Assembly (NCBI GenBank): GCA_036741355.1
Contig: DAINSK010000004.1
Coordinates: 65,289 to 129,288, forward strand
DNA length: 64,000 nucleotides
Source: Chloroflexota bacterium
GTDB lineage: Bacteria > Chloroflexota > Dehalococcoidia > CAUJGQ01
Direction of reading: 5' to 3'
Numbering within the stretch: the stretch's first letter is position 1; every line of letters starts with the position of its first letter. Below, one piece after another: positions 4,018 to 54,146 of the stretch. Both the position numbers and the translations under genes were made by a program. Below the pieces are notes generated by a model. It was not told the origin of the DNA and did not search any database. It worked only from the letters and a program-made list of their open reading frames with translations.

Positions 4018-4884
4018 GTGGACTTCCTCATGCGCAGCCAGGGGCCCCTGCGGCCCCAGCAATGGCGGGCCCTAGACGACACCGTAATCCGAATCGCGCG
4101 GGAGTCGCTGACCGGCCGGCGGTTCATCTCCATTTTTGGTCCGCTCGGACCCGGTGTTCAGGCGGTTCCGGATGATCGTTTCCGCGTCAGCGAGGACGGT
4201 GACGTAGACCTGCTTGGTGAGAGCGACGCTGCCAGCATCCAACTCTCCGTCCGCCGCTACCTGCCGATCCCCTTGATCTACAAGGACTTCGTCTTACCCT
4301 GGCGGGATCTCGAGACGAGCTCGCAGTTCGGCAGCCCGCTCGACACCAGCGGTGCGGCCGCGGCCGCGGCCGCGTGCGCCCATACCGAAGACGACCTCAT
4401 CTTTAATGGCAACCTGGCCCTCGATCTGCCCGGTCTGCTCACCGTGGAGGGATCGCAGCGCCTCGCACTCGGCGATTGGAACGTCGCCGGCGAGGCGTTC
4501 GGTGCCATTGTCCAAGCCACGGAGGCGCTTGTTGGCGGGCATTTCTTCGGGCCGTTTACGGTCATCACCAGCCCCGTGTTGTTTGCGCAGTTGAATCGAA
4601 TGTTCGAGAACAGCGGCACACTGACCCTGGAACAGATCCAGAAACTCGTCCGTGGTGGCGTATATCAAACGTCGGCGCTGCCCGAAGGCACTGCGGTCGT
4701 TATCGCCGCCGCGGACGAAAACTTGGATCTGGCGCTCGCCCTGGACATGACGGTTGCTTATGAGGCCGCCGAAAACATGAACCACCGCTTCCGCGTTGTG
4801 GAAGCGGTGGTCTTGCGCATCAAACGCCCGCAATCGATCGTGATTCTTCAGAATCAGATATCGGCGCCGCGGCGGCGCTCCTAA
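4018..4884 (+). CDS. Family 1 encapsulin nanocompartment shell protein (linocin M18-like, HK97 fold)
   Basis: Clear similarity to known family-1 encapsulins (M. tuberculosis/T. maritima type): RRFISIFGPLGPGVQAV aligns to RRVVDV..P.G...AV, DDLIFNGN to EDRxIxxG, and GHFFGPFTVITSPVLFAQL to GVDGPYSxLLSxxxYTKV. Length about 285 aa. Start is GTG 4018 or ATG 4030. Confidence 0.8.
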   Translation: MDFLMRSQGPLRPQQWRALDDTVIRIARESLTGRRFISIFGPLGPGVQAVPDDRFRVSEDGDVDLLGESDAASIQLSVRRYLPIPLIYKDFVLPWRDLETSSQFGSPLDTSGAAAAAAACAHTEDDLIFNGNLALDLPGLLTVEGSQRLALGDWNVAGEAFGAIVQATEALVGGHFFGPFTVITSPVLFAQLNRMFENSGTLTLEQIQKLVRGGVYQTSALPEGTAVVIAAADENLDLALALDMTVAYEAAENMNHRFRVVEAVVLRIKRPQSIVILQNQISAPRRRS

Positions 4885-13504: not shown

Positions 13505-13530
13505 TCTGGTTGGCCTGCCGGTTCAGTAGC

Positions 13531-13551
13531 CCGCGCAGGCGGGCTTTGTCA
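13531..13551 (+). terminator. Possible intrinsic terminator downstream of the AI-2E transporter gene
   Basis: CCCGCGCAGGCGGG hairpin followed by CTTTGTC. Confidence 0.25.
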
Positions 13552-13855: not shown

Positions 13856-14338
13856 CTATTCGAGCACGATTTCTCCGCTTTTGCCGCCGCTCTTGTGAAC
13901 GAGGCGAACATCGGTCAGCCGCATGCCCCGATCGACCGCCTTGCACATGTCGTAAACAGTCAAAGCCGCGACCGTGACCGCGGTTAGCGCCTCCATTTCG
14001 ACGCCCGTTTTCCCGGCGGTCTTCACGGTGGCCGAAATGTCGACCGAGTGATCGGCTTCGTTTGGCTGCAGGTCGACGTCGATGCCGCTGAGCAGCAGCG
14101 GGTGGCACATCGGGATCAGCTCGTGGGTGCGCTTGGCTGCCATCATGCCCGCGATCTGCGCTGTCGTGAGCACGTTTCCCTTGCTGATCTCTCCCGCGAG
14201 GATCAGCGCCAGCGTCTCCGGCAGCATGATTACCCGCCCCCGCGCCGTTGCTACGCGCGCCGTGTCGGCCTTTGCAGTCACGTCCACCATCCGTGCACGG
14301 CCTTCGGCGTCGATGTGGCTGAGTCGGTCCTGGGTCAT
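13856..14338 (-). CDS. moaC: Cyclic pyranopterin monophosphate synthase MoaC
   Basis: [30 protein letters not shown]...[25 protein letters not shown]...VYDMCKA is a strong MoaC signature. ATG 14338 with GGAGG RBS. 4-nt ATGA overlap with the rdgB stop. Confidence 0.9.
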
Positions 14339-14955
14339 ACTTCCTCCCGGAAGGCACGGTCGTCCCGCAGCTTCTCCAGCACCTCGACGGCGGCGCGCAC
14401 GGCTTTTGAGCGAGAGCTGATGCGGTTCTTTTCGTCGAGACTCAGTTCGGCCATGGTCAGATCGCGGTCGGGTAGCAGGAAAATTGGGTCGTACCCGAAG
14501 CCGTCCCAACCCCGCGGATGCATGGCGATGCGGCCCTCGCACACACCGTCGGTCTGCCACGAACGGCCATCGGGCGTGGCAATCACGATCGCCGCGCGGA
14601 AGCGGGCACGGCGCTTCTCCTCGGGAACGACTTGCAACTCCCGTAATATTAGCTCCGCCTTGCCCTCGGCCGAGAGGTCGATTCCGCCGTAGCGGGCCGA
14701 GTGTACGCCCGGCCGGCCGCCAAGCACATCGACCTCTAGCCCCGAATCGTCGGCTAGGGCTGCCATGTTTGCTTCCCGCGCGAACGCATGCGCCTTGATC
14801 GCGGCGTTCTCGGCGTACGTCGTACCGGTCTCGGGTGGATCGAGGTCCAGCGAGATCTGGGCCGGCGTCAGGACCCGCCATCCGCGCGGCTCCAGCAGCG
14901 CCCGTATCTCCCGGGCTTTGCCGGGATTGCTGGTTGCAAGCAGCAGCCGCGGCAC
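14335..14955 (-). CDS. rdgB: Non-canonical purine NTP pyrophosphatase (RdgB/HAM1 family)
   Basis: [14 protein letters not shown]... and FGYDPIF motifs. 206 aa. GTG start. Confidence 0.9.
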
Positions 14956-14958
14956 GGC

Positions 14959-16470
14959 TTAGCTTCCTTTCGTCGCTGCGGCGAGCGCTGGCACCAGACA
15001 TCCCGCGTCGGGCGAGCCCCAACCCGTGGGGAAGTCCCATCCCGCAAGTGCGGGCTCGCCGGGGTCGTTGCGAAATCGATTGGTTCCCTGGGTCACGTCG
15101 TGGAAGCATTTGCCCGAGGAACCGAGCTGATAGAGCGCGGGGTTGATGTTGCCGAGTCCCTTGCCCGCTGCCTGGTTCGCCAGAGCGACGATGGCGGCCC
15201 AGATCGGCGCGGACGCGCTCGTACCACCGGAGACCCCCGGGTGCGCGCCGCGGTCGGGAGTCGCGGCGAAATAAAGAAGCAGACCTGCGCCGAGAGCGGC
15301 GACGTCGGCCTCGCCGCGTTTGCCGTTCAATAGCTTCTGGAACGAGGGAGGCAGGACGCTCTGCTCCGCCGGTTGGTCGTAAAAGATGCTGATGCCGCTG
15401 CCGCTGGCGACTGAGCTGGAATCGAGCACGGTTTCCGATCCGTAACTGCCGTTTGGGTTCAAACGCAGCATTGTGCCGCCGACGACGGTGATCCACGGAA
15501 CTCCCGCCGGCCAGTCCGCCGACCGAACGGTTGCGACACCGCCCGAGAGCGTATCGGCCAGCGGGCCATGGTCGCCGCTGGCCGTCACAATCGTGACGCC
15601 CTTCCGGCCGGCTTGCTGGTAGAACGCGTCGAAATCGGCCCGCATCGCGGCCCCGTCACTGTCGTCGAGCAGGTTTTCGCTGGTGCCCCAGCTCTGCGAA
15701 ATCACGGAACCAAGCTTGTTGTCCACCGCGTAACGTTCGAGCGCGAGGAATTCCGGCATGCCGTCCACGCCTTCCGTTTCCGAAACCGGGCTGGCCAGTA
15801 CGACGATACGTGCTCCCGGCGCAATGCCATGGACCCACTCGGCGTCGAGCGTCGTTTCGCCCGCCCAGCCCCTGGTGTCAGCCGGGTCGATCTCTTTGAA
15901 GTCGGTACCCAGTGGGTAAAGCTCGATGAGGTCGGCGTCGGGCAGGCCCATCGCATTGCTGAATGCGGCCAGATCCTCTTTCAGCGTGGGGCTGCCAAAG
16001 GAGACGATGATGACGACTGTTTGCCCGGTCCCATCGATGCCGTTGCGGATCAGCCCGTCAACGTTATAGGCAGCGCGTACCTGTGCCGGTTCGTAACAGG
16101 GCACTTTGAGCAACGAGATGCATTCCTGGGTCGTTGGAACGGCGTCGCGGTGCAGCAGCTCTTCCGCCGAGCTCGCGGGCTCGTGGACAGGCCGCGGTGC
16201 CGGCGATATGGCCCGGCCCGGCGCCGATGTCGCCCGGATTTGCGTGCCCGGCGTAGGCGATATGATGACCGGCGTGCTGCCGGCCGCCGCATTCGCAGAC
16301 CCGGTCGGTGCAGTCGTGACGGCGGCAGCCGCGGTCGTGGATCGCGGTTCCACTGTGCCGGCTGGCTGCTTAGACTCGCCACCCGTACACGCCGCGACAG
16401 CCAGTATGACCGCTAGAAAAGCAGCCGCCCGGCAGGCCCTTGAGATCGTTCGTCGGGGGGCAATTACCAC
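14959..16470 (-). CDS. S53 family peptidase (sedolisin/kumamolisin-like) lipoprotein with pro-domain
   Basis: Lipobox ILAVAAC, then a pro-kumamolisin-like activation region. SGDHG (oxyanion Asp) and [13 protein letters not shown] (catalytic Ser) motifs. Confidence 0.8.
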
Positions 16471-20815: not shown

Positions 20816-23800
20816 TTAGGCGCCCTTCTCGAAACGAAGGATGGTCTGGCCGAGCGCCAATTTGGCGCCGTCAGCTAGCTCAGCCGGCTCTGTAAGCAGT
20901 TCGCCGTCCAGCGTCGTGCCGTTGCTGCTGCCACTGTCGGTCACCGTGTAGCTTCCCGATGAGCCGCGATCGATGCGGGCATGAAAACCTGATACTCTGC
21001 GGTCCGCCATGACGATGTCGTTGCTCGGGTGCCGGCCGATGCCCGTGAACTCATCGTTCAAAGTGTACGCGCGGCCCGCATTCTCGCCTTCCAGTACCAG
21101 GAGCCGAGCCCGACGCCGCGTCCACGGCGCGGCCACCATTGCTGCGCTCGCGTCGCTGCGGCCGGTAAGATCCGGCTCCGCCAGTCTTGCGCCAGCCGTA
21201 TGAAAGGCCGCTCCCGCCTCGTCCGTCGAAGCGCTCGTTACCCCCGGCGTCGTCGGGCCGATCGCGTGCGAAGCTTCGCGATCGGCCGCCGCCTGCTCGA
21301 TCGTCTGGCGCATTCCTGGAATAGACTGCAGCAGCGTCCGAAAGTCCTGTTGGTCCAGGGCATAGACGGTGACCGACGTGCGCGCGCGGACGGTCGCGGT
21401 CCGTGGGACGTCGTACATCAGGGCAATTTCACCGAAGTAGTCGCCGGAGCGCAGGACGACGAGGATCCGTCCGGTGGCACCAGAGTCCTGGGTAAGCACC
21501 TCTGCTTCGCCGGAAACGACCAGGTACAGCTTGTCTCCCGCCTCACCCGCCCTGACGATATTTGACCCTACCTCGAATCGCTCCGTGGTCAGACGCGACG
21601 CAAGTCGGGACAGTTGATCGCCGTTCAGTCTCGCGAATATCGGCACGCGACGAAGGTATTCGATCTCCAGCGCCATGCGCAGCACGCCGTCCGTCGTGCC
21701 CCCGCTTTGCTCCTCGTAGAGTCGGGCGTAGAGGCCGCCGGAGGTGAGCAGTTCCGCGTGGGTTCCTTCTTCCATCAACCTGCCGCGGTCGAGGACGTAG
21801 ATACGGTCGGCCGTCGCCGCGGCAGCGAGACGGTGCGTCACGCTGATCGTCGTACGGCCTCGGGCCAGTGAAGCTAGCGTGTGGTTGATCGCGTTCTCGG
21901 TGCGTGGGTCGAGCGCCGAGGTCGCCTCGTCGAGCACCAGGACGCTGGGATTGCGCAGGATGGCGCGCGCGATCGACAGCCGCTGGCGCTGTCCGCCGGA
22001 AAGGTTGGAGCCGCGCTCGCCGACGACAGTATCGTAGCCTTGGGGCATGTTCGTGATGAACTCGTGTACCTCCGCCGCCCTGGCCGCCGCGTCTACCTCC
22101 TGGTCGGTCGCGTCCTCACGTCCAAAGCGGATGTTTTCGCGAACGGAGCGGTTGAAGAGGAAATTCTCCTGGAACACCAGCCCCATCTGACCGCGCAAAG
22201 AATCGATCGACAGGTCACGTGCATCTGCGCCGTCCATGCGCACGGACCCGCGGTCCGCGTCATAAAAACGCAGTATCAGGTTGGTAACCGTACTTTTACC
22301 ACTTCCGGAAGGCCCCACGAACGCGACCGAGGCACCGGCCGGAATGGTGAAGCTGACGTCTTCGAGTTGTGGCTCGCCGCCGGTATAACTGAATGTGACG
22401 TTTTCAAAGGTGATTCCCTGGCGCAGCGGGCCCATTTCGCGGGAGTCGGGCCGATCCGCTACCGCTGGCTCGGCGTTGAGGAGTTCGGTCACCCGGTCCA
22501 TCGCACCGGACGCCTGCTGTAACGACTGGGCAACACCGCTCAAACTCTGTGCGGGCGCGATCAGCCCTCCGAGCAGCGACAGGAACGCGACCAACGCGCC
22601 GAGCGATAGCTGGCCCTGGATTACATAATAACCGCCGACGCCGAACGCGAGTACCTGGATCAGGGTCGTCAGGAGGCTGGCGGAGAGGCCGAACAGCGAC
22701 CCGAGGAAGGTCAGGCGGATGGCGCTTTTGTAGAGCCCGGCCGTCTGGTCCATCCATTCGCGCAAAAACGATCGCTTGAGTCCGTAGGCTCGAATGACCG
22801 GTTGGGCGGTGACGTTTTCCTGAAGAACGGTTGTCACGTCCGAAAGTCGCTCTTGCCGGTCGCGGCTGGCGCGAGACGCGGGCGGGCCAAGGAATCGGGT
22901 GATCAGGTAGAAAAACGGCAGTGCGACAAGCGCGATAACCGTCAGCTTCCAATCGAGATACAGGAGCGACGCGAGGCTGGCGAGGAAGGTCAGCACCAGC
23001 ACCAGCCCTTGCAGCAGGGCGCCGGTGAGTGCGAATTCGACCGCAAACAGGTCGTTCGACATGCGCGACAGGATGTCGCCGGTCCCTGTCTTGCTATAGT
23101 AGCCGGCAGATAGATCCTGGAGCTTCGCAAACATCTGGCGCCGCATGTCACGCAAGACGCCTTCGCCGATCTCGGCGCTCAGGTAGGTTTCCCGCAGCGA
23201 GGCCAGCCCCATCACGAAGAACAGGATCAGCCCCGCTACCAGCATCTTCACCAAGAGCGAGGTGTCTTTCTTGGTAGTGAGCGCGTTGTCGATGAGGTAA
23301 CGCTGAGCGTGGGGCAGAAGCTGGCTGAAGATGATACCGAACAAGATGTAGACGATGATCTCGATCTGCTTGCCGCGGTAAGGGCGCAGATAGACCAGCG
23401 ACGTGCGCAGAAAGCGACCGATCCCGCCGACCGATGGCGCGGACTTGCGGAGCGCCTGCTGCCAGCGCTTTTCGAGCGCCTCGAACGTCTGCCCATAGGC
23501 GGCCTTGGCCGTCGCGGCGGGCTGCTGGGGATCGTAGTCCGATAGCAGCTTGAGGAAACCCTCCGGCCCGCGGTCGGAGATCAACCACCCCACAAATGAC
23601 GTGGAGGCGGCGTCGTAGATCTGTGCGTTCGCCTCACTCGGACCCGCAAACAGCGGCGCAATTTCGAGCGGCATTCCGGAAGCTTTCGCTCCCGCCAGCA
23701 TGAGCGAAAGCTGTTCGGGGGGCGGCACGAGCCCCATGATTTGACCGAAAACGCCTACGAGTCCGTCGAGCAAAAACGGCGCGCGCGCGGGATCGCTGCC

Positions 23801-24232
23801 CGTGTGCATCGATAGGAGGAGCCGCACAAACGTACGTTCGAGGTCTATGCCCGGCGCGTCCGATCGGTAGACACTCCATACCTCGCGCTGGGCTGCAACG
23901 ATGTAGCTTCCCGCGGTAAGCGCCTTGCCGGGTTGCGCCGGGTCCTGCAGCACTTCGCCGAGGTAGACAGATATCTGGCCATCGGGCGCGGGAACAGCGA
24001 GAGTCGCGGCCGCGGCATCGATCAGCGCTTCGAGGCGCTGGGCGACGGCCGACGACTGCTGATCTGCGAAAGAGCCGCTCTGCACGAAGATGCGCAAGTG
24101 AGGGGATTGCTCGACGCGCCGCTCAATCGGCCCGCTAACCCCTAAAGGCTCGAAACAGCTTCCGCAAACCAGCGACCCCGGCGGGTTAGGTTGGCCGCAA
24201 GCCGGGCAGCGTCTATCTGATGCCATCGCCAT
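20816..24232 (-). CDS. Multidomain ABC exporter: N-terminal zinc ribbon plus unknown ~260-aa domain, 6-TM ABC membrane domain, ABC ATPase, cyclic-nucleotide-binding domain, C-terminal FHA domain
   Basis: ATG 24232 with GGAGG RBS. CPACGQPNPPGSLVCGSCFEP zinc ribbon. TMD with 6 helices. Walker A GPSGSGKST, signature LSGGQRQR, Walker B LVLDEATSALD. cNMP-binding region (FARLNGDQLSRL...GDYFGEIALM...RTATVRA). C-terminal FHA (YTLNDEFTGIGRHPSNDIVMADRRVSGFHARI...SSNGTTLDGELL). Confidence 0.85.
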   Translation of the reverse strand: MAMASDRRCPACGQPNPPGSLVCGSCFEPLGVSGPIERRVEQSPHLRIFVQSGSFADQQSSAVAQRLEALIDAAAATLAVPAPDGQISVYLGEVLQDPAQPGKALTAGSYIVAAQREVWSVYRSDAPGIDLERTFVRLLLSMHTGSDPARAPFLLDGLVGVFGQIMGLVPPPEQLSLMLAGAKASGMPLEIAPLFAGPSEANAQIYDAASTSFVGWLISDRGPEGFLKLLSDYDPQQPAATAKAAYGQTFEALEKRWQQALRKSAPSVGGIGRFLRTSLVYLRPYRGKQIEIIVYILFGIIFSQLLPHAQRYLIDNALTTKKDTSLLVKMLVAGLILFFVMGLASLRETYLSAEIGEGVLRDMRRQMFAKLQDLSAGYYSKTGTGDILSRMSNDLFAVEFALTGALLQGLVLVLTFLASLASLLYLDWKLTVIALVALPFFYLITRFLGPPASRASRDRQERLSDVTTVLQENVTAQPVIRAYGLKRSFLREWMDQTAGLYKSAIRLTFLGSLFGLSASLLTTLIQVLAFGVGGYYVIQGQLSLGALVAFLSLLGGLIAPAQSLSGVAQSLQQASGAMDRVTELLNAEPAVADRPDSREMGPLRQGITFENVTFSYTGGEPQLEDVSFTIPAGASVAFVGPSGSGKSTVTNLILRFYDADRGSVRMDGADARDLSIDSLRGQMGLVFQENFLFNRSVRENIRFGREDATDQEVDAAARAAEVHEFITNMPQGYDTVVGERGSNLSGGQRQRLSIARAILRNPSVLVLDEATSALDPRTENAINHTLASLARGRTTISVTHRLAAAATADRIYVLDRGRLMEEGTHAELLTSGGLYARLYEEQSGGTTDGVLRMALEIEYLRRVPIFARLNGDQLSRLASRLTTERFEVGSNIVRAGEAGDKLYLVVSGEAEVLTQDSGATGRILVVLRSGDYFGEIALMYDVPRTATVRARTSVTVYALDQQDFRTLLQSIPGMRQTIEQAAADREASHAIGPTTPGVTSASTDEAGAAFHTAGARLAEPDLTGRSDASAAMVAAPWTRRRARLLVLEGENAGRAYTLNDEFTGIGRHPSNDIVMADRRVSGFHARIDRGSSGSYTVTDSGSSNGTTLDGELLTEPAELADGAKLALGQTILRFEKGA

Positions 24233-25597: not shown

Positions 25598-25915
25598 TCA
25601 TGCCACAGTGACCGGTACCCGGCACGATTTGGCGACCTTCGTGGTCATCAGTGCAACCAACGAATGAGCTCCTACCGCATTTGCCGTTTGAGTGCCGGCG
25701 CGTTGCAAGGTAGTTTTGGCGCCCTCAGACGCTTGCCTGGCCTGCGAGACCGCATTGGCCGCCGCCTGGTCTGCTAGTATTGACCAGCCGCGGTTTCGCG
25801 ATCTGAGAAGGGCGTCTACCAGCGTCGTACGGGGTCCGGGGAGAGTGACGGGATGAACACCAACGGCTATGCGCGTCCGGAATTGCTCGCCGAGCCCGAG
25901 TGGCTGGCCGAGCAT
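25598..25915 (-). CDS. Very uncertain small Ala/Gln-rich ORF
   Basis: Protein-like (non-Arg-rich) composition in its C-terminal two-thirds, but the only ATG overlaps the rhodanese 5' end on the opposite strand. Confidence 0.15.
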   Translation of the reverse strand: MLGQPLGLGEQFRTRIAVGVHPVTLPGPRTTLVDALLRSRNRGWSILADQAAANAVSQARQASEGAKTTLQRAGTQTANAVGAHSLVALMTTKVAKSCRVPVTVA

Positions 25916-26683
25916 ATCAACGACGAAACCGTGCGCGTAATCGACTGCGCCACGCTAGATGCTTACCGACGGGCCCATATCACCGGCGCGGTGGGGCTGC
26001 CGGTTCACATCTATATCAAGGATCCCAAGGACGAGACCTTCGTCATGCCGCCCGACCAGTTTGCAGAACTCATGGGCAAGCTTGGGGTCGGGGACGACAC
26101 GACCGTCGTGACCTACGACGATAACAACAGCCTGGTCGCAACTCGCCTCTGGTGGGTGCTGAATTACTACGGCCATACCAAAAGCAAAGTGCTCAACGGC
26201 GGCTGGCACCGCTGGCTGCATGAGGGCAGGGCCATCACCCCCCACGCGGCGCACCCGCAGCCAGCAACCTTCACGCCAACGACCAACGAGGACCTGGTTT
26301 GCGGCCTCGATGACCTCAAGGGGCGCATCGGCAAGGCGGGCGTACAGATCATGGACGTGCGCACCGACGAGGAATGGACGGGTGCGAACGACCGTGGCAA
26401 CAAGCGTAGCGGCCACGTTCCCGGAGCCGTCCACCTCGAATGGCTTAAATTCGTCTCGAAAGACGACCGGCGCGTGTTCCTGCCCGCCGACGATCTGCGG
26501 GCGATGCTAAGAGAGGTTGGCATCACTCCAGAATCGGAAGTCGTCACTTATTGACAGGGAGGCATCCGTGCGGCGCACGGAATGTTTGTGTTGAAGCTGC
26601 TCGGTTGGGACCGCGTCCGCAACTACGATGGCTCGATGCGCGACTGGGCGAACCGCGACGATACGCCGCTGACGGTCGACTAG
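25853..26683 (+). CDS. Two-domain rhodanese (thiosulfate/3-mercaptopyruvate sulfurtransferase) with in-frame TGA at the catalytic Cys position (candidate selenocysteine, otherwise pseudogene)
   Basis: ATG 25853 with GGGGAGAG RBS. N-terminal inactive and C-terminal active rhodanese domains. ...EVVTY-TGA-QGGIRAAHGMFVLKLLGWDRVRNYDGSMRDW... means the UGA (26552-26554) replaces the active-site Cys of the CxGGxR loop. 43 codons continue in frame to TAG 26681-26683. Confidence 0.6.
26561..26590 (+). other. Hairpin 11 nt downstream of the in-frame UGA (possible bacterial SECIS element)
   Basis: GGCAU-CCGUGC-GGC-GCACGG-A-AUGUU: a perfect 6-bp GC-rich stem with GGC loop, extendable by 5 more pairs with one bulge. 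The apical loop lies 18-20 nt after the UGA. Confidence 0.3.
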
Positions 26684-26699
26684 CAGTCAGGCCGGCACG

Positions 26700-27512
26700 A
26701 TGCGGCGCGGCGGCGTACGGTTAACAACCTCGAAATCGGCCCGGTGCTACACTTGTCGCGTGCATAAGTGGCGAGAAATTGGGCTATCTCGGAGGCGCCT
26801 CCTCCTGCTGAACGTGGCCCCGGCTGCGTTCGCCCTGCTTGCCTGTTCGAATGCAAAGCGACTGGCGCTAAAGAACGTCGAGCCGCTCCTTCTTGCTGAA
26901 TTGGCGCTCGCGCCTGCCGATCTCGGCGGGCTCTATGTTGTTGATTCTGATCGCTATCTGGACCAGGACGGCAACAGCGTTTCGGCGCCGAGCAAGAATT
27001 TCATCCGCCAATTACGAGTCAAAGACACGACAGCCGCCGCCAGCCCTGACACCGCGGCCACGGTAATCCTCGTCACGCTGGACGATCAGGGACAGGAGGC
27101 CGCGACCGAGTTCGTCGATGCCGCCGATGACCAGGACGTGGGACCGGCAAATCTGGCCGACTACATTCAGCAGCGGATTCCGGGAAGCCACGACGCCCAC
27201 GCCGAACTGATCGAAGATTTCCCCACCTACGACGATGCTACAGTGGCAAATCGCCTGACCTGGCAGCAGCCGGTTAACGGCGCCGAGCAGACGATGAAGG
27301 CCTATGGCGTCTATATTCGCAGTGGTGGCCTGCTGACGCTGGTAGCGCTACGAGCGCCCGCAGACTCCGAGGGTAACGAGCCGGAAAGCCTTCGTCACCA
27401 AGCCGAAACGGTCGTTCACATACAGGCAGACAAGCTCACATATCCCCCGGCGTCGCGGAACGGACCGCGGACGCGATTCCAATCGACCGGAAACCCGGTG
27501 GATAAGGAGTAG
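26700..27512 (+). CDS. Hypothetical lipoprotein
   Basis: n-region RRR, hydrophobic core and LLAC lipobox. Acidic mature part with no recognisable domain. Start uncertain (ATG 26700 or GTG 26760). Confidence 0.5.
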   Translation: MRRGGVRLTTSKSARCYTCRVHKWREIGLSRRRLLLLNVAPAAFALLACSNAKRLALKNVEPLLLAELALAPADLGGLYVVDSDRYLDQDGNSVSAPSKNFIRQLRVKDTTAAASPDTAATVILVTLDDQGQEAATEFVDAADDQDVGPANLADYIQQRIPGSHDAHAELIEDFPTYDDATVANRLTWQQPVNGAEQTMKAYGVYIRSGGLLTLVALRAPADSEGNEPESLRHQAETVVHIQADKLTYPPASRNGPRTRFQSTGNPVDKE

Positions 27513-27519
27513 CGGGACC

Positions 27520-27756
27520 ATGATCGATGTAAAGCTCATGCCGTTGCTGGCAAAGCGAGCGGCATCGAAAAAAGAGCAGCTGACGGTCGCATTCCACTCG
27601 GGGCTGACGCCTGCAGCTGTGGCCGAGTCCGAAGGCTTTCACGGCGCCGACCTCGATCCGCTGCTCGCGGTGGTCAACGGCAGCCAGGTCGAGCTTGACT
27701 CGCAGCTTGCGGACGGCGACCGTCTCGAGCTGATGATCGGCATCGCGGGAGGCTAG
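27520..27756 (+). CDS. MoaD/ThiS family sulfur-carrier protein (ubiquitin-like, C-terminal Gly-Gly)
   Basis: 78 aa, AAGGAG RBS. ...VAFHSGL...VVNGSQVELDSQLADGDRLELMIGIAGG* is the characteristic beta-grasp carrier ending in GG. Confidence 0.75.
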   Translation: MIDVKLMPLLAKRAASKKEQLTVAFHSGLTPAAVAESEGFHGADLDPLLAVVNGSQVELDSQLADGDRLELMIGIAGG

Positions 27757-51809: not shown

Positions 51810-54146
51810 ATGACCGCTCAGGTTGAAGTTCCGAAACTGGTTGGTACTCGTGTCAAGCGACGTGAAGATCCGCGCCTTATCACCGGTAATGCGAAGTATG
51901 CCGATGACCTGCAGCCACGCGGCGCGCTTTCGATGGCGATCCGCCGCAGCGAGTACGCACACGCGCGGATCCTCAGCGTCAACACCGAGGCGGCAAAGAA
52001 AATGCCCGGTGTCGTCGCGGTATTGACCGCGGCTGACCTTGAGGGCGTGATCGCACCGCTGCCAACCGTGCCGGCGACACCTGATACGAAGCTACCGCCT
52101 CACTATCCGCTGGCAAAGGGAAAGGTGCGTCACGTTGGCGATCCAATCGCGGTGGTTGTCGCCGAGGATCGCTATTTAGCTCGCGACGCCGTGGACGCCA
52201 TCGAGGTCGAGTTCGAAGAGCTGCCGGCCGTCACCGAGCTCGAAGAGGCGATCAAGCCCGGTTCACCTAAAGTACACGACGAGTTCGATGACAACGTCAC
52301 CTATTACTGGACGCTCGCAACCGGCGATGTGGATGATGCGTTCGCCAAAGCCAGCGTCAAGGTCTCGCAGCGGATGGTTAGCCAGCGGTTGATGGGCACA
52401 CCGTTGGAGACTCGTTCGATCGTCGCCGACTACCAGCCCGGCGAAGGGCAATTGACCCTGTGGTCCTCGACGCAGATCCCACACCTGCTCAAGCCCAACA
52501 TCGCCGGCCTGTTGGGAATGTCGGAGAACTACGTCCGCGTGATCGCGCCCGAAGTCGGCGGCGGCTTCGGCGTCAAGGCAGAGGTCTACGCCGAAGAGGC
52601 CCTTTGCGCCGCGATTTCGCGGATGACGGGCCGGCCCGTGAAGTACACGGAGACGCGGCAGGAGAACTTTCAGGCCACCGTCCAGGGCCGTGGCCAGATC
52701 GGCTTCTTCGACGTAGCCGCCACCAGAGAGGGCAAGGTCACCGGTCTGCGGGTGAAGATCCTCGCCGATATTGGCGCCTACTGCCAGCTCTTCACGAACA
52801 TCGTACCCACGCTTTCCGGCTTGATGCTTACCGGCGTCTACGATATTCCGGCGCTGAGCGCCGAAATCTACGGCCTCTTTACTAATAAAACGGCCACCGG
52901 CGCCTATCGCGGTGCCGGTCGTCCGGAAGCCACCTACTACATCGAGCGCATGATGGACCTGCTTGCGCTCGAGCTGAACCTGGATCCCGTCGAAGTGCGA
53001 CGCCGCAACCTGATCCCGACGGAGAAGTTCCCGTACACGACCGCCTGCGGCATGGTCTACGACAGCGGCAACTACTTGCCGGCCCTCGACAAGGCGCTGA
53101 AGATGGCCGATTACGACGGTGTCCGCAGGCAACAGCAAGGCGGACCGAAAGACGGGAAGTATTTGGGTATCGGCGTTTCCACGTGGACGGAGATCTGCGG
53201 CTTCGGACCGTCGGCGGCTCTGCCTGCGGGGGGCTGGGAGTTCGGCAAGGTTTCCTTCGAACGCAGCGGCATGATTACCGTGCAGACCGGGGCTTCGCCG
53301 CACGGCCAGGGTCAGGAGACGAGCTTTGCGCAGATCGTCGCCGACGAGTTCGGGGTGCCGATCGAAACGATCAAAGTAGTTCATGGCGACACCGACAAAG
53401 TGCCTCACGGCGTCGGCACGTTCGGTAGTCGGGCCACCGTAGTCGGCGGTGCGGCGATCGTGATGTCGGTAAACAAGGTCAAAGAGAAGATGAAGCGCTT
53501 CGCCGCCCACCTGATGGACGCGAACGAAGCCGACCTCGAAGTGAGCAACGGTAAGGTGTGGGTCAAAGGCTCGCCCGACAGATCGGTCGGATTAGCCGAG
53601 ATCGTCGGCGCTGCCTACAACGCGATTAACCTGCCGCCCGAAACCGAGCCGGGTCTAGAAGCGACGAGCTACTTCGAGCCGCCGAACTTCACCTTTCCAT
53701 TTGGCGTCCACATCGCGGTTGTGGAGGTCGACAGCGCAACCGGCGACGTTCAGTTGAAACGTTACGTAGCCGTCGATGATTGCGGCGTGGTGATTAATCC
53801 GCTGCTAGTAGACGGGCAAATTCACGGCGGCGTGGCTCAAGGCATCGGTCAGGCGCTCTACGAAGAGGTTGTCCACGACGAAAACGGCCAGCTTATCAGC
53901 GGCTCGCTGATGGACTACGCGCTGCCGCACGCCGAGAACTTCCCGATGATTGAAACGTCGAACACGGTGACGCCGAACCCGCTCAACCCGCTGGGGGCTA
54001 AGGGAATTGGCGAGGCAGGCACGATCGCGGCTTCGCCCACGCTCGTGAGCGCCGTCATGGACGCGCTTAAGCCGTTTGGCGTCAAACATCTCGATATGCC
54101 GCTCAGGCCGGAAAAGGTCTGGAGGGCAATGAACCCGGCGTCGTAG
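51810..54146 (+). CDS. Molybdopterin-binding large subunit of a xanthine dehydrogenase-family Mo-hydroxylase (CoxL form II-like)
   Basis: ATG with AGAGGAGG RBS. N-terminal a/b-hammerhead, Mo-cofactor motif GAYRGAGRPEA. 778 aa. No adjacent small (2Fe-2S) or medium (FAD) subunit genes. Confidence 0.85.
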   Translation: MTAQVEVPKLVGTRVKRREDPRLITGNAKYADDLQPRGALSMAIRRSEYAHARILSVNTEAAKKMPGVVAVLTAADLEGVIAPLPTVPATPDTKLPPHYPLAKGKVRHVGDPIAVVVAEDRYLARDAVDAIEVEFEELPAVTELEEAIKPGSPKVHDEFDDNVTYYWTLATGDVDDAFAKASVKVSQRMVSQRLMGTPLETRSIVADYQPGEGQLTLWSSTQIPHLLKPNIAGLLGMSENYVRVIAPEVGGGFGVKAEVYAEEALCAAISRMTGRPVKYTETRQENFQATVQGRGQIGFFDVAATREGKVTGLRVKILADIGAYCQLFTNIVPTLSGLMLTGVYDIPALSAEIYGLFTNKTATGAYRGAGRPEATYYIERMMDLLALELNLDPVEVRRRNLIPTEKFPYTTACGMVYDSGNYLPALDKALKMADYDGVRRQQQGGPKDGKYLGIGVSTWTEICGFGPSAALPAGGWEFGKVSFERSGMITVQTGASPHGQGQETSFAQIVADEFGVPIETIKVVHGDTDKVPHGVGTFGSRATVVGGAAIVMSVNKVKEKMKRFAAHLMDANEADLEVSNGKVWVKGSPDRSVGLAEIVGAAYNAINLPPETEPGLEATSYFEPPNFTFPFGVHIAVVEVDSATGDVQLKRYVAVDDCGVVINPLLVDGQIHGGVAQGIGQALYEEVVHDENGQLISGSLMDYALPHAENFPMIETSNTVTPNPLNPLGAKGIGEAGTIAASPTLVSAVMDALKPFGVKHLDMPLRPEKVWRAMNPAS

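What the first reader, a model, noticed from the sequence alone, without database searches (positions are those of the whole stretch)
25853..26683. Rhodanese with an in-frame UGA at the catalytic cysteine position and a downstream hairpin: candidate selenocysteine sulfurtransferase
The two-domain rhodanese reads ...SEVVTY-UGA-QGGIRAAHGMFVLKLLGWDRVRNYDGSMRDWANRDDTPLTVD*. The UGA (26552-26554) sits exactly where the active-site Cys of the C-x-G-G-x-R loop is expected, and 43 more in-frame codons with rhodanese-typical motifs follow before a TAG. A GC-rich hairpin starts 11 nt after the UGA, with its apical GGC loop at +18 to +20. That is within the spacing window of bacterial SECIS elements. Rhodanese-related sulfurtransferases are among the reported bacterial selenoprotein families. 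The ORF track truncates the gene at the UGA.
Basis: partly seen in the sequence, partly recalled or inferred. Interest (0 to 1): 0.75.

Follow-up and report, generated by a model that had tools for sequence, protein, structure and literature searches.

The report
Selenocysteine rhodanese gene with SECIS hairpin
This gene encodes a sulfur-transfer enzyme whose catalytic cysteine is replaced by selenocysteine, read from a UGA "stop" codon with the help of a small RNA hairpin; the enzyme family is already known, so this is a correct but ordinary finding that gene callers mis-annotate as truncated.

Summary
The two-domain rhodanese CDS at 25853-26683 (+) has an in-frame TGA (26552-26554) exactly where homologues and solved rhodaneses have the catalytic Cys. 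Then come 42 conserved codons and a TAG.

It is not an error or a pseudogene:
- The same TGA occurs in five independent assemblies.
- It also occurs in 6 of 80 GTDB species representatives and in at least 120 metagenome contigs, whose proteins are only 41-79% identical to this one.
- The codons after the UGA are under purifying selection (dN/dS about 0.26).

The hairpin CCGUGC-GGC-GCACGG, 12-26 nt after the UGA, meets all four criteria of the published bacterial SECIS model. It forms in 91 of 97 UGA-forms and in 0 of 71 Cys-forms that encode the same I-R-A-A-H peptide. Synonymous sites inside it are frozen only in the UGA-forms.

TGA is an ordinary stop for neighbouring genes, so the codon is not reassigned genome-wide.

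The family, "rhodanese-related sulfurtransferase" (COG2897/cd01449, UxxG), has been a described bacterial selenoprotein family since 2005. This is a new member, from a Chloroflexota (Dehalococcoidia-like) genome.

I could not test whether this genome has selA, selB, selD or tRNA-Sec. None lies in the window.

The parts
25853..26683 (+). Complete coding sequence of a two-domain rhodanese-type sulfurtransferase. It is 276 residues with selenocysteine at residue 234, and ends in TAG at 26681-26683. Gene callers stop at the TGA and report a 233-aa product plus a spurious 33-aa ORF.
   Evidence: sequence and translation. (Pfam Rhodanese x2, E=1.8e-36). (aligns end to end with the solved rhodanese 1UAR, E=8e-49). 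(public gene calls show the 233-aa and 33-aa split).
26552..26554 (+). UGA codon read as selenocysteine. It is the first residue of the active-site loop U-Q-G-G-I-R-A.
   Evidence: It aligns with the catalytic Cys of 93 of 93 full-length homologues and with the Cys of the 1UAR CRIAERS loop. TGA is present at this column in L001-L005, L076 and about 120 metagenome loci. It is identical in five independent assemblies.
26565..26581 (+). Core of the bacterial SECIS hairpin, U-CCGUGC-[GGC]-GCACGG-A. The stem is 26566-26571 paired with 26575-26580. The apical loop GGC is at 26572-26574. The hairpin lies inside codons I-R-A-A-H-G.
   Evidence: fold; the codons are CGT-GCG-GCG-CAC in 97 of 97 UGA-forms but vary freely in 71 Cys-forms, and the six core pairs form in 91/97 versus 0/71; a C-G to A-U compensatory change in 8 sequences, and 83.8% of cells paired versus 14-61% when the pairing register is slid.
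26560..26587 (+). Extended, lineage-specific lower stem of the same hairpin: 12 bp with one bulged A in this sequence.
   Evidence: MFE structure. The lower pairs are not conserved across the family: A-U at columns 16/34 occurs in only 40 of 110 sequences. This part is inferred for this sequence only.
25840..25845 (+). GGAGAG Shine-Dalgarno-like motif 7 nt upstream of the ATG.
   Evidence: Read directly. Its function is inferred.

Best explanation
The locus is one intact gene for a tandem-domain rhodanese (thiosulfate/3-mercaptopyruvate sulfurtransferase type). Its catalytic nucleophile is selenocysteine rather than cysteine. I infer the mechanism from the established bacterial Sec pathway. 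When the ribosome reaches UGA 26552-26554, the hairpin 12-26 nt downstream (GG at the start of a 3-nt loop) recruits SelB-GTP-Sec-tRNA(Sec). Sec is inserted, and translation continues for 42 more codons to the TAG. These codons complete the active-site loop (U-QGGIRA) and the C-terminal half of the catalytic domain. The enzyme would then carry sulfane sulfur, or selenium, on the selenolate as a Se-S or Se-Se intermediate, in place of the Cys persulfide of ordinary rhodaneses. What is shown: the UGA sits at the Cys column; the UGA is conserved in very diverged orthologues; the downstream codons are under protein-level selection; there is RNA-level selection on the hairpin that is specific to the UGA forms. 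What is inferred: SelB-dependent insertion in this organism, and the chemistry and physiological substrate.
For: (1) Of the best 120 homologue clusters, 27 end exactly at ...TY and the other 93 have C-QGGIRA. (2) DNA of five Dehalococcoidia/Chloroflexota species representatives plus L076 shows TGA at that codon, followed by 41-47 conserved in-frame codons. Nearly all continue for 40-48 codons through the conserved YDGSMxEWAN motif. Their proteins are 41-79% identical to the window protein. (4) dN/dS for codons 12-40 after the UGA has a median of 0.26 over 45 pairs. (5) Third-position entropy at the R, A, A and H codons is 0 bits in 97 distinct UGA-forms, against 1.4, 1.6, 1.4 and 0.6 bits in 71 Cys-forms. 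The two Gly codons just upstream vary freely in the UGA-forms (1.6-1.9 bits). The hairpin forms in 91/97 versus 0/71. (6) There is a compensatory AUC..GGN to AUA..GUA change. (7) Sub-families with other residues have different hairpins at the same distance: GGCGAAC-AGUUU-GUUCGUC and CGCGGC-AGUU-GCCGCG. (8) All four criteria of the published bSECIS model (PMC13188914, Fig. 2 legend) are met: a 3-nt loop, a 6-7 bp stem, GG in the first loop positions, 17 nt between the UGA and the loop, and an MFE of -12.9 kcal/mol. (9) The TGA is identical in five independent assemblies, including a 98.7% strain variant. (10) TGA ends 7 of 20 neighbouring genes. (11) The family is a published selenoprotein family. 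Dehalococcoidia MAGs with 46-49 selenoprotein genes are on record.
Against: No selA, selB, selD or tRNA-Sec was found in the 64-kb window or in about 2 Mb of related loci. The machinery is therefore unverified for this genome. No second selenoprotein gene was found in the window. In this single sequence the hairpin is not more stable than shuffles. Formal covariation is limited to one base pair, because the stem is nearly invariant. There is no experimental evidence of Se incorporation for any member that I could find.
Confidence: 0.93

Rival explanations
1. The gene is a recent nonsense pseudogene: an ordinary Cys-rhodanese killed by a TGC/TGT to TGA mutation.
For: A single base separates TGA from TGT or TGC. 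Close Cys-form relatives exist at 78-79% identity. Gene callers treat it as truncated.
Against: The same TGA is kept in orthologues down to 41% identity. The downstream frame is always open, with dN/dS about 0.26. The hairpin is under UGA-form-specific constraint.
Confidence: 0.01
2. The A of the TGA is a sequencing or assembly error.
For: None beyond the prior possibility.
Against: Five contigs from five different samples and assemblers have TGA. Four are identical over the 834 bases compared (the CDS plus 3 nt), and one is a strain variant with three other substitutions. A 23-member cluster at 90% identity consists almost entirely of 233-residue products.
Confidence: 0.005
3. The UGA is read through by a route other than Sec: genome-wide reassignment to Trp or Gly, or near-cognate Cys/Trp suppression stimulated by the hairpin.
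For: The Sec machinery was not seen. A downstream hairpin could in principle stimulate readthrough.
Against: TGA terminates 7 of 20 neighbouring genes. The site is the catalytic Cys column, where only Sec or Cys keeps function. The hairpin fits the SelB-type bSECIS model, including the loop GG. The class is known to be rich in selenoproteins.
Confidence: 0.03
4. The gene is a genuine Sec-type gene, but it sits in a genome that has lost the Sec machinery, so only the inactive 233-residue fragment is made.
For: The machinery is not observable here. Sec/Cys turnover in this family is rapid: L210 is a TGT form that still carries the hairpin.
Against: The gene, UGA and hairpin are intact and identical to the family consensus. 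They are also maintained in a 98.7% strain variant. Loss of the machinery would be expected to lead quickly to conversion to Cys or to decay.
Confidence: 0.03

Closest known systems
Rhodanese-related sulfurtransferase selenoprotein family. It is listed under COG2897 in the Sargasso Sea selenoproteome (PMC1088965) and under cd01449 in the GOS selenoproteome (PMC2398784). [quoted passage not shown]
   Same: It has the tandem rhodanese architecture. Sec replaces the catalytic Cys. The motif is U-x-x-G (U-Q-G-G). A bSECIS hairpin with a G-containing small loop lies directly downstream. Cys homologues are widespread.
   Different: The published counts were tiny: 3 sequences in the Sargasso Sea and 8 in GOS, all marine. 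This member comes from a high-GC Chloroflexota (Dehalococcoidia-like) lineage that is also found in non-marine samples. I could not fetch the published representatives (AACY01016424, MCY3690685.1, MBM9537886.1), so I could not say whether it is form 2 or form 4.
Tandem-domain rhodaneses with solved structures: Thermus thermophilus rhodanese 1UAR, Azotobacter RhdA 1E0C, Mycobacterium SseA/CysA 3HZU and 3AAX, bovine rhodanese 1RHD, and E. coli SseA 1URH.
   Same: The alignment is end to end (E = 8e-49 to 2e-29). There is an inactive N-terminal domain and a catalytic C-terminal domain. The nucleophile opens a six-residue cradle loop.
   Different: The nucleophile is Sec, not Cys. The loop QGGIRA matches neither the TST motif (CRKGVTA / CRIxERS) nor the 3-MST motif (CG[ST]GVTA). 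The best NCBIfam model (3-MST, PRK11493) scores 132 bits, below its cut-off of 250. Substrate specificity is therefore unknown.
E. coli fdhF/fdnG-type bacterial SECIS elements, which bind SelB.
   Same: The hairpin lies inside the coding sequence directly 3' of the UGA. The loop is small and begins with G, followed by G or U. The spacing falls within the 16-37 nt window.
   Different: The loop here has 3 nt (GGC), and the conserved core has no bulged U. The sequence is unrelated to fdhF. The core is nearly invariant across a whole protein family, rather than being gene-specific.

Membership tests
Bacterial selenoprotein gene (Sec-UGA plus bSECIS) | The in-frame UGA aligns with Cys in homologues. 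| tested here: met
   93 of 93 full-length homologues have Cys at this column. 73 genome loci have TGC or TGT. The UGA aligns with the catalytic Cys of 1UAR.
Bacterial selenoprotein gene (Sec-UGA plus bSECIS) | The reading frame downstream of the UGA is conserved and under purifying selection. | tested here: met
   40-48 open codons follow the UGA in about 120 loci. Median dN/dS is 0.26. The GC3 signature is the same on both sides of the UGA.
Bacterial selenoprotein gene (Sec-UGA plus bSECIS) | The bSECIS consensus model of PMC13188914: a 3-9 nt loop, a 4-16 bp upper stem, G in the first two loop positions, 16-37 nt between UGA and loop, and MFE <= -7.5 kcal/mol. | tested here: met
   The loop is GGC (3 nt). 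The stem is 6-7 bp. There are 17 nt between the UGA and the loop. The MFE is -12.9 kcal/mol. The loop G at +18 is a synonymous site, yet it is G in 114 of 115 UGA-forms.
Bacterial selenoprotein gene (Sec-UGA plus bSECIS) | The hairpin is conserved in UGA-forms but not in Cys-forms. | tested here: met
   The six core pairs form in 91/97 UGA-forms versus 0/71 Cys-forms. Synonymous-site entropy is 0 bits versus 0.6-1.6 bits. There is one compensatory pair.
Bacterial selenoprotein gene (Sec-UGA plus bSECIS) | selA, selB, selD and tRNA-Sec are present in the same genome. | not testable with these tools
   Only 64 kb of the genome is available. None of these genes is in the window or in 2 Mb of related loci. 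At class level only, Dehalococcoidia MAGs with 46-49 selenoprotein genes are reported.
Bacterial selenoprotein gene (Sec-UGA plus bSECIS) | Selenium is actually incorporated at the UGA. | not testable with these tools
   This needs 75Se labelling or mass spectrometry.
Rhodanese-related sulfurtransferase selenoprotein (COG2897 / cd01449, UxxG) | Two tandem rhodanese domains of the SseA/TST type. | tested here: met
   Pfam finds PF00581 twice. The best NCBIfam model is SseA/3-MST, aligned over residues 14-274. The PDB tandem rhodaneses align end to end.
Rhodanese-related sulfurtransferase selenoprotein (COG2897 / cd01449, UxxG) | Sec at the first position of the catalytic loop, with a U-x-x-G motif. 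| tested here: met
   U-Q-G-G at residues 234-237. The motif as listed in PMC13188914.
Rhodanese-related sulfurtransferase selenoprotein (COG2897 / cd01449, UxxG) | Direct sequence similarity to the published representatives (AACY01016424, MCY3690685.1, MBM9537886.1). | not tested
   Those accessions could not be retrieved with the available tools.
Thiosulfate sulfurtransferase or 3-mercaptopyruvate sulfurtransferase, in the strict sense | Active-site loop CRKGVTA / CRxGx[RT] for TST, or CG[ST]GVTA for 3-MST. These motifs are recalled from established knowledge of the family. | tested here: not met
   The loop is U-QGGIRA. The NCBIfam 3-MST equivalog scores 132 bits against a cut-off of 250. 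It is a rhodanese by fold and architecture, but substrate class should not be assigned.

The most novel reading that the evidence does not exclude
The 15-nt SECIS core CCGUGCGGCGCACGG is identical in rhodaneses that share only 41-55% protein identity and come from marine and terrestrial lineages. At least two alternative hairpins exist in sister sub-families, and a close TGT (Cys) relative still carries a 'fossil' hairpin. This could mean that the catalytic loop and SECIS behave as a co-evolved, perhaps horizontally exchanged, cassette that lets lineages toggle between Cys and Sec. In this lineage the Sec-rhodanese could also work with the ThiS-like Gly-Gly protein two genes downstream, in a sulfur or selenium relay that has not been described.
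Probability: 0.1. Interest if true: 0.5.

Novelty: new member of a known kind. Interest (0 to 1): 0.3.

Why it matters
The practical consequence is for annotation. Public gene calls for this gene and for dozens of its orthologue clusters stop at the UGA. They report a 233-residue 'sulfurtransferase' that lacks its active site, plus a spurious 33-residue ORF. These should be merged into one selenoprotein.

The data also show that this selenoprotein family is far larger and more widespread than the 3 and 8 sequences originally reported.

The Sec-form versus Cys-form contrast at synonymous sites is an unusually clean natural demonstration of a SECIS constraint embedded in a coding sequence.

None of this changes current understanding of Sec decoding.

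Tried and rejected
- **Rfam** (gathering thresholds on the window, and permissive thresholds on 26400-26750): no SECIS-like family matched.
- **Single-sequence folding statistics:** not significant (z = -0.61).
- **Local folding energy, Sec-forms versus Cys-forms:** not discriminating (-12.3 versus -13.0 kcal/mol). The Cys set is much more GC-rich, 71% versus 60%, so I used position-specific pairing and synonymous-site entropy instead.
- **tRNA-Sec searches** with ARAGORN on the window and on 206 loci: none found.
- **tblastn with E. coli SelA, SelB and SelD** against the window and all loci: only weak GTPase-domain hits for SelB, mostly in Cys-form loci.
- **Codon-usage log-odds scan for other TGA-split genes:** this failed to recover even the rhodanese. 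I replaced it with a GC-by-codon-position scan. That ranked the rhodanese first and found no other convincing candidate in the window or in relatives' contigs.
- **A conserved resolving Cys** (C32 or C150): C150 is invariant in the 27 closest Sec-forms but not across the wider Sec family, so I rejected the idea.
- **Linkage to the ThiS-like gene:** syntenic only in the closest relatives, so it is not a family-wide association.

Full report
**Observation**

An ORF starts at ATG 25853, preceded by GGAGAG at 25840-25845. It runs through 233 codons to a TGA at 26552-26554. It then continues in the same frame for 42 codons (QGGIRAAHGMFVLKLLGWDRVRNYDGSMRDWANRDDTPLTVD) to a TAG at 26681-26683.

Joined, the 276-residue protein has two Pfam rhodanese domains (E = 1.8e-36). 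It aligns end to end with solved tandem rhodaneses. The best match is Thermus thermophilus 1UAR (E = 8e-49), and the UGA falls on the catalytic Cys of its CRIAERS loop.

The hairpin is real. The stem CCGUGC (26566-26571) pairs with GCACGG (26575-26580), with the loop GGC at 26572-26574. An extra U-A pair and, in this sequence, a longer bulged lower stem span 26560-26587.

On its own the fold is unremarkable for 63% GC DNA (z = -0.61). Rfam has no matching family. GC by codon position is the same on both sides of the TGA. This was the best TGA-split coding signal in the whole window.

**Is the TGA real?**

The exact 233-residue truncated product is encoded on five contigs, from five different samples and assembly pipelines. 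Four are identical to the window over the 834 bases compared (the CDS plus 3 nt). One is a 98.7% strain variant that differs at three other positions in the gene but keeps the TGA. A sequencing error is excluded.

TGA also terminates 7 of 20 neighbouring genes, so the codon is not reassigned genome-wide.

**Comparative evidence for recoding**

- Of the 120 best homologue clusters, 27 (72-98% identical over the aligned part) end exactly at ...TY. The other 93 are full length with C-QGGIRA.
- Among 80 GTDB species representatives with a homologue, five Dehalococcoidia/Chloroflexota MAGs (L001-L005) and one 'Thermoflexaceae' MAG (L076) have TGA at this codon, followed by 41-47 conserved in-frame codons. 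Another 73 have TGC or TGT; one locus (L050) was not matched by the motif search.
Nearly every hit is a rhodanese in which the UGA is followed by 40-48 open codons ending in the conserved YDGSMxEWAN motif. One hit (L107) is evidently a chance match and another (L117) is cut off by the contig end.
- These proteins are only 41-79% identical to the window protein.
- For codons 12-40 after the UGA, beyond the hairpin, median dN/dS among ten relatives is 0.26.

A nonsense pseudogene cannot explain a stop codon that is maintained across this much divergence and followed by a protein-constrained frame.

**The hairpin is a selected RNA element specific to the UGA forms**

In 97 distinct UGA-form sequences that encode I-R-A-A-H after Q-G-G, the codons are CGT-GCG-GCG-CAC without exception. 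Third-position entropy there is 0 bits. The two Gly codons immediately upstream vary freely in the same sequences (1.6-1.9 bits).

In 71 Cys-form homologues that encode the same peptide, the same sites vary: 1.4, 1.6, 1.4 and 0.6 bits, with CGT in only 6 of 71.

All six core base pairs form in 91 of 97 UGA-forms and in 0 of 71 Cys-forms.

The search pattern left these third positions free, and everything after the first Ala codon lay outside it. The genome-derived UGA-forms, which were found by protein similarity rather than by the DNA pattern, show the same hairpin.

At the base of the stem, AUC...GGN (C-G) is replaced by AUA...GUA (A-U) in eight sequences. That is a compensatory change, and 0 of 500 shuffles reached the same count of doubly changed cells. 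With the proposed register 83.8% of cells pair, against 14-61% when the register is slid.

Sub-families with different residues carry different hairpins at a similar distance. R-A-A-N-S forms have GGCGAAC-AGUUU-GUUCGUC. L136 and L166 have CGCGGC-AGUU-GCCGCG.

The published bacterial SECIS model requires a 3-9 nt loop, a 4-16 bp stem, G in the first two loop positions, 16-37 nt between UGA and loop, and MFE <= -7.5 kcal/mol (PMC13188914). The window's element meets all of these: loop GGC, a 6-7 bp stem, 17 nt of spacing, and -12.9 kcal/mol.

**Sec/Cys turnover**

The closest Cys-forms are as close to the window protein as the closest Sec-forms (78-79%). One of them (L210, TGT) still carries ATC-CGT-GCG-GCG-CAC, a fossil hairpin. 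The other (L208, TGT) has lost it. This fits the dynamic Sec/Cys exchange described for bacterial selenoproteins.

**Machinery**

I found no tRNA-Sec, selA, selB or selD in the window or in about 2 Mb of fetched related loci. I also found no second selenoprotein candidate. Pfam annotation of the larger ORFs in the rest of the window shows ordinary housekeeping and transport genes.

Whether this particular genome has the Sec machinery could therefore not be tested. The scans of the genome and metagenome collections were already spent.

At class level, the BSepDB paper lists Dehalococcoidia MAGs with 46 and 49 selenoprotein genes (PMC13326102). The window's nearest relatives, which share gene order (inositol monophosphatase, rhodanese, a 270-aa protein, a 78-aa protein, a 156-aa protein), are labelled Dehalococcoidia or Chloroflexi.

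**What is known**

'Rhodanese-related sulfurtransferase' (COG2897) was reported as a new selenoprotein family in the Sargasso Sea selenoproteome. That study found three sequences and drew a predicted bSECIS for AACY01016424 (PMC1088965). The family appears again in the GOS data set as cd01449, with eight sequences (PMC2398784). A 2026 review lists it as rhodanese-like forms 2 and 4 with the motif UxxG (PMC13188914).

The window gene has that architecture and motif (U-Q-G-G), so it is a new member of a known selenoprotein family.

Its loop, QGGIRA, matches neither the classical TST signature nor the 3-MST signature. The best NCBIfam model (3-MST) scores well below its cut-off. The physiological substrate should therefore be left open.

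**Mechanism and verdict**

The most likely mechanism (confidence 0.93) is SelB- and SECIS-dependent insertion of Sec at residue 234. This would give a full-length rhodanese whose selenolate carries the transferred sulfur or selenium.

Shown:
- the position of the UGA;
- its conservation across diverged orthologues;
- translation-level constraint downstream;
- RNA-level constraint on the hairpin.

Inferred:
- SelB dependence in this organism;
- the chemistry of the enzyme.

Rivals are each at or below a few per cent: pseudogene, sequencing error, non-Sec readthrough, and a Sec gene stranded without its machinery.

Because the family is already described, interest is modest (0.3). The main value is correcting a systematic mis-annotation and showing how large and widespread the family is.

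Noticed in passing
window 27520-27756 (+): A 78-residue ORF ending in ...IGIAGG, two genes downstream of the rhodanese. It matches Pfam ThiS just below threshold (E = 6.7e-4, 20.6 bits against a cut-off of 22.5), aligned to the C-terminal Gly-Gly. It may be a ubiquitin-fold sulfur carrier next to a sulfurtransferase. Public Pfam records show no hit for it. The linkage is seen only in the closest relatives (L001/L152, L002, L099, L210).
   Followed up: partly
L210:2358-3188 (Cys-form homologue, 78% identical): This TGT (Cys) form still carries the SECIS-type codons ATC-CGT-GCG-GCG-CAC, a 'fossil' hairpin. Another close TGT form (L208) has lost them. This suggests very recent Sec/Cys switching in this lineage.
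   Followed up: partly
L092, L101, L105, L109, L112, L118 and others (R-A-A-N-S sub-family); L136 and L166: Sister sub-families of the Sec-rhodanese use different downstream hairpins. One is GGCGAAC-AGUUU-GUUCGUC, about 8 nt further 3'. The other is CGCGGC-AGUU-GCCGCG. Neither is the near-invariant CCGUGC-GGC-GCACGG.
   Followed up: partly
window 26582-26683 (+); equals L201:10730-10831: Public gene calls annotate a separate 33-residue ORF here. It is simply the in-frame C-terminal remainder of the rhodanese, starting at an internal ATG.
   Followed up: yes
window 13527-13550 (-): A single Rfam CRISPR-DR28 hit just above its gathering score (37.3 against 35 bits, E = 0.004). There is no repeat array around it, so it is probably a chance match.
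   Followed up: yes
window 4018-4884 (+): An encapsulin shell protein (Pfam Linocin_M18, E = 3e-68). I did not look for a cargo gene.
   Followed up: no
window 13856-15496 (-) and 51810-54146 (+): A MoaC domain lies at the C-terminal end of an over-long ORF, and there is a xanthine-dehydrogenase-family molybdenum enzyme. Both are molybdenum-cofactor-related genes in the same window as a sulfurtransferase. No link to the rhodanese was tested.
   Followed up: no
window 20816-24232 (-): A large ABC transporter fused to cNMP-binding and FHA domains, according to the precomputed Pfam hits for L201. This is an unusual domain combination.
   Followed up: no
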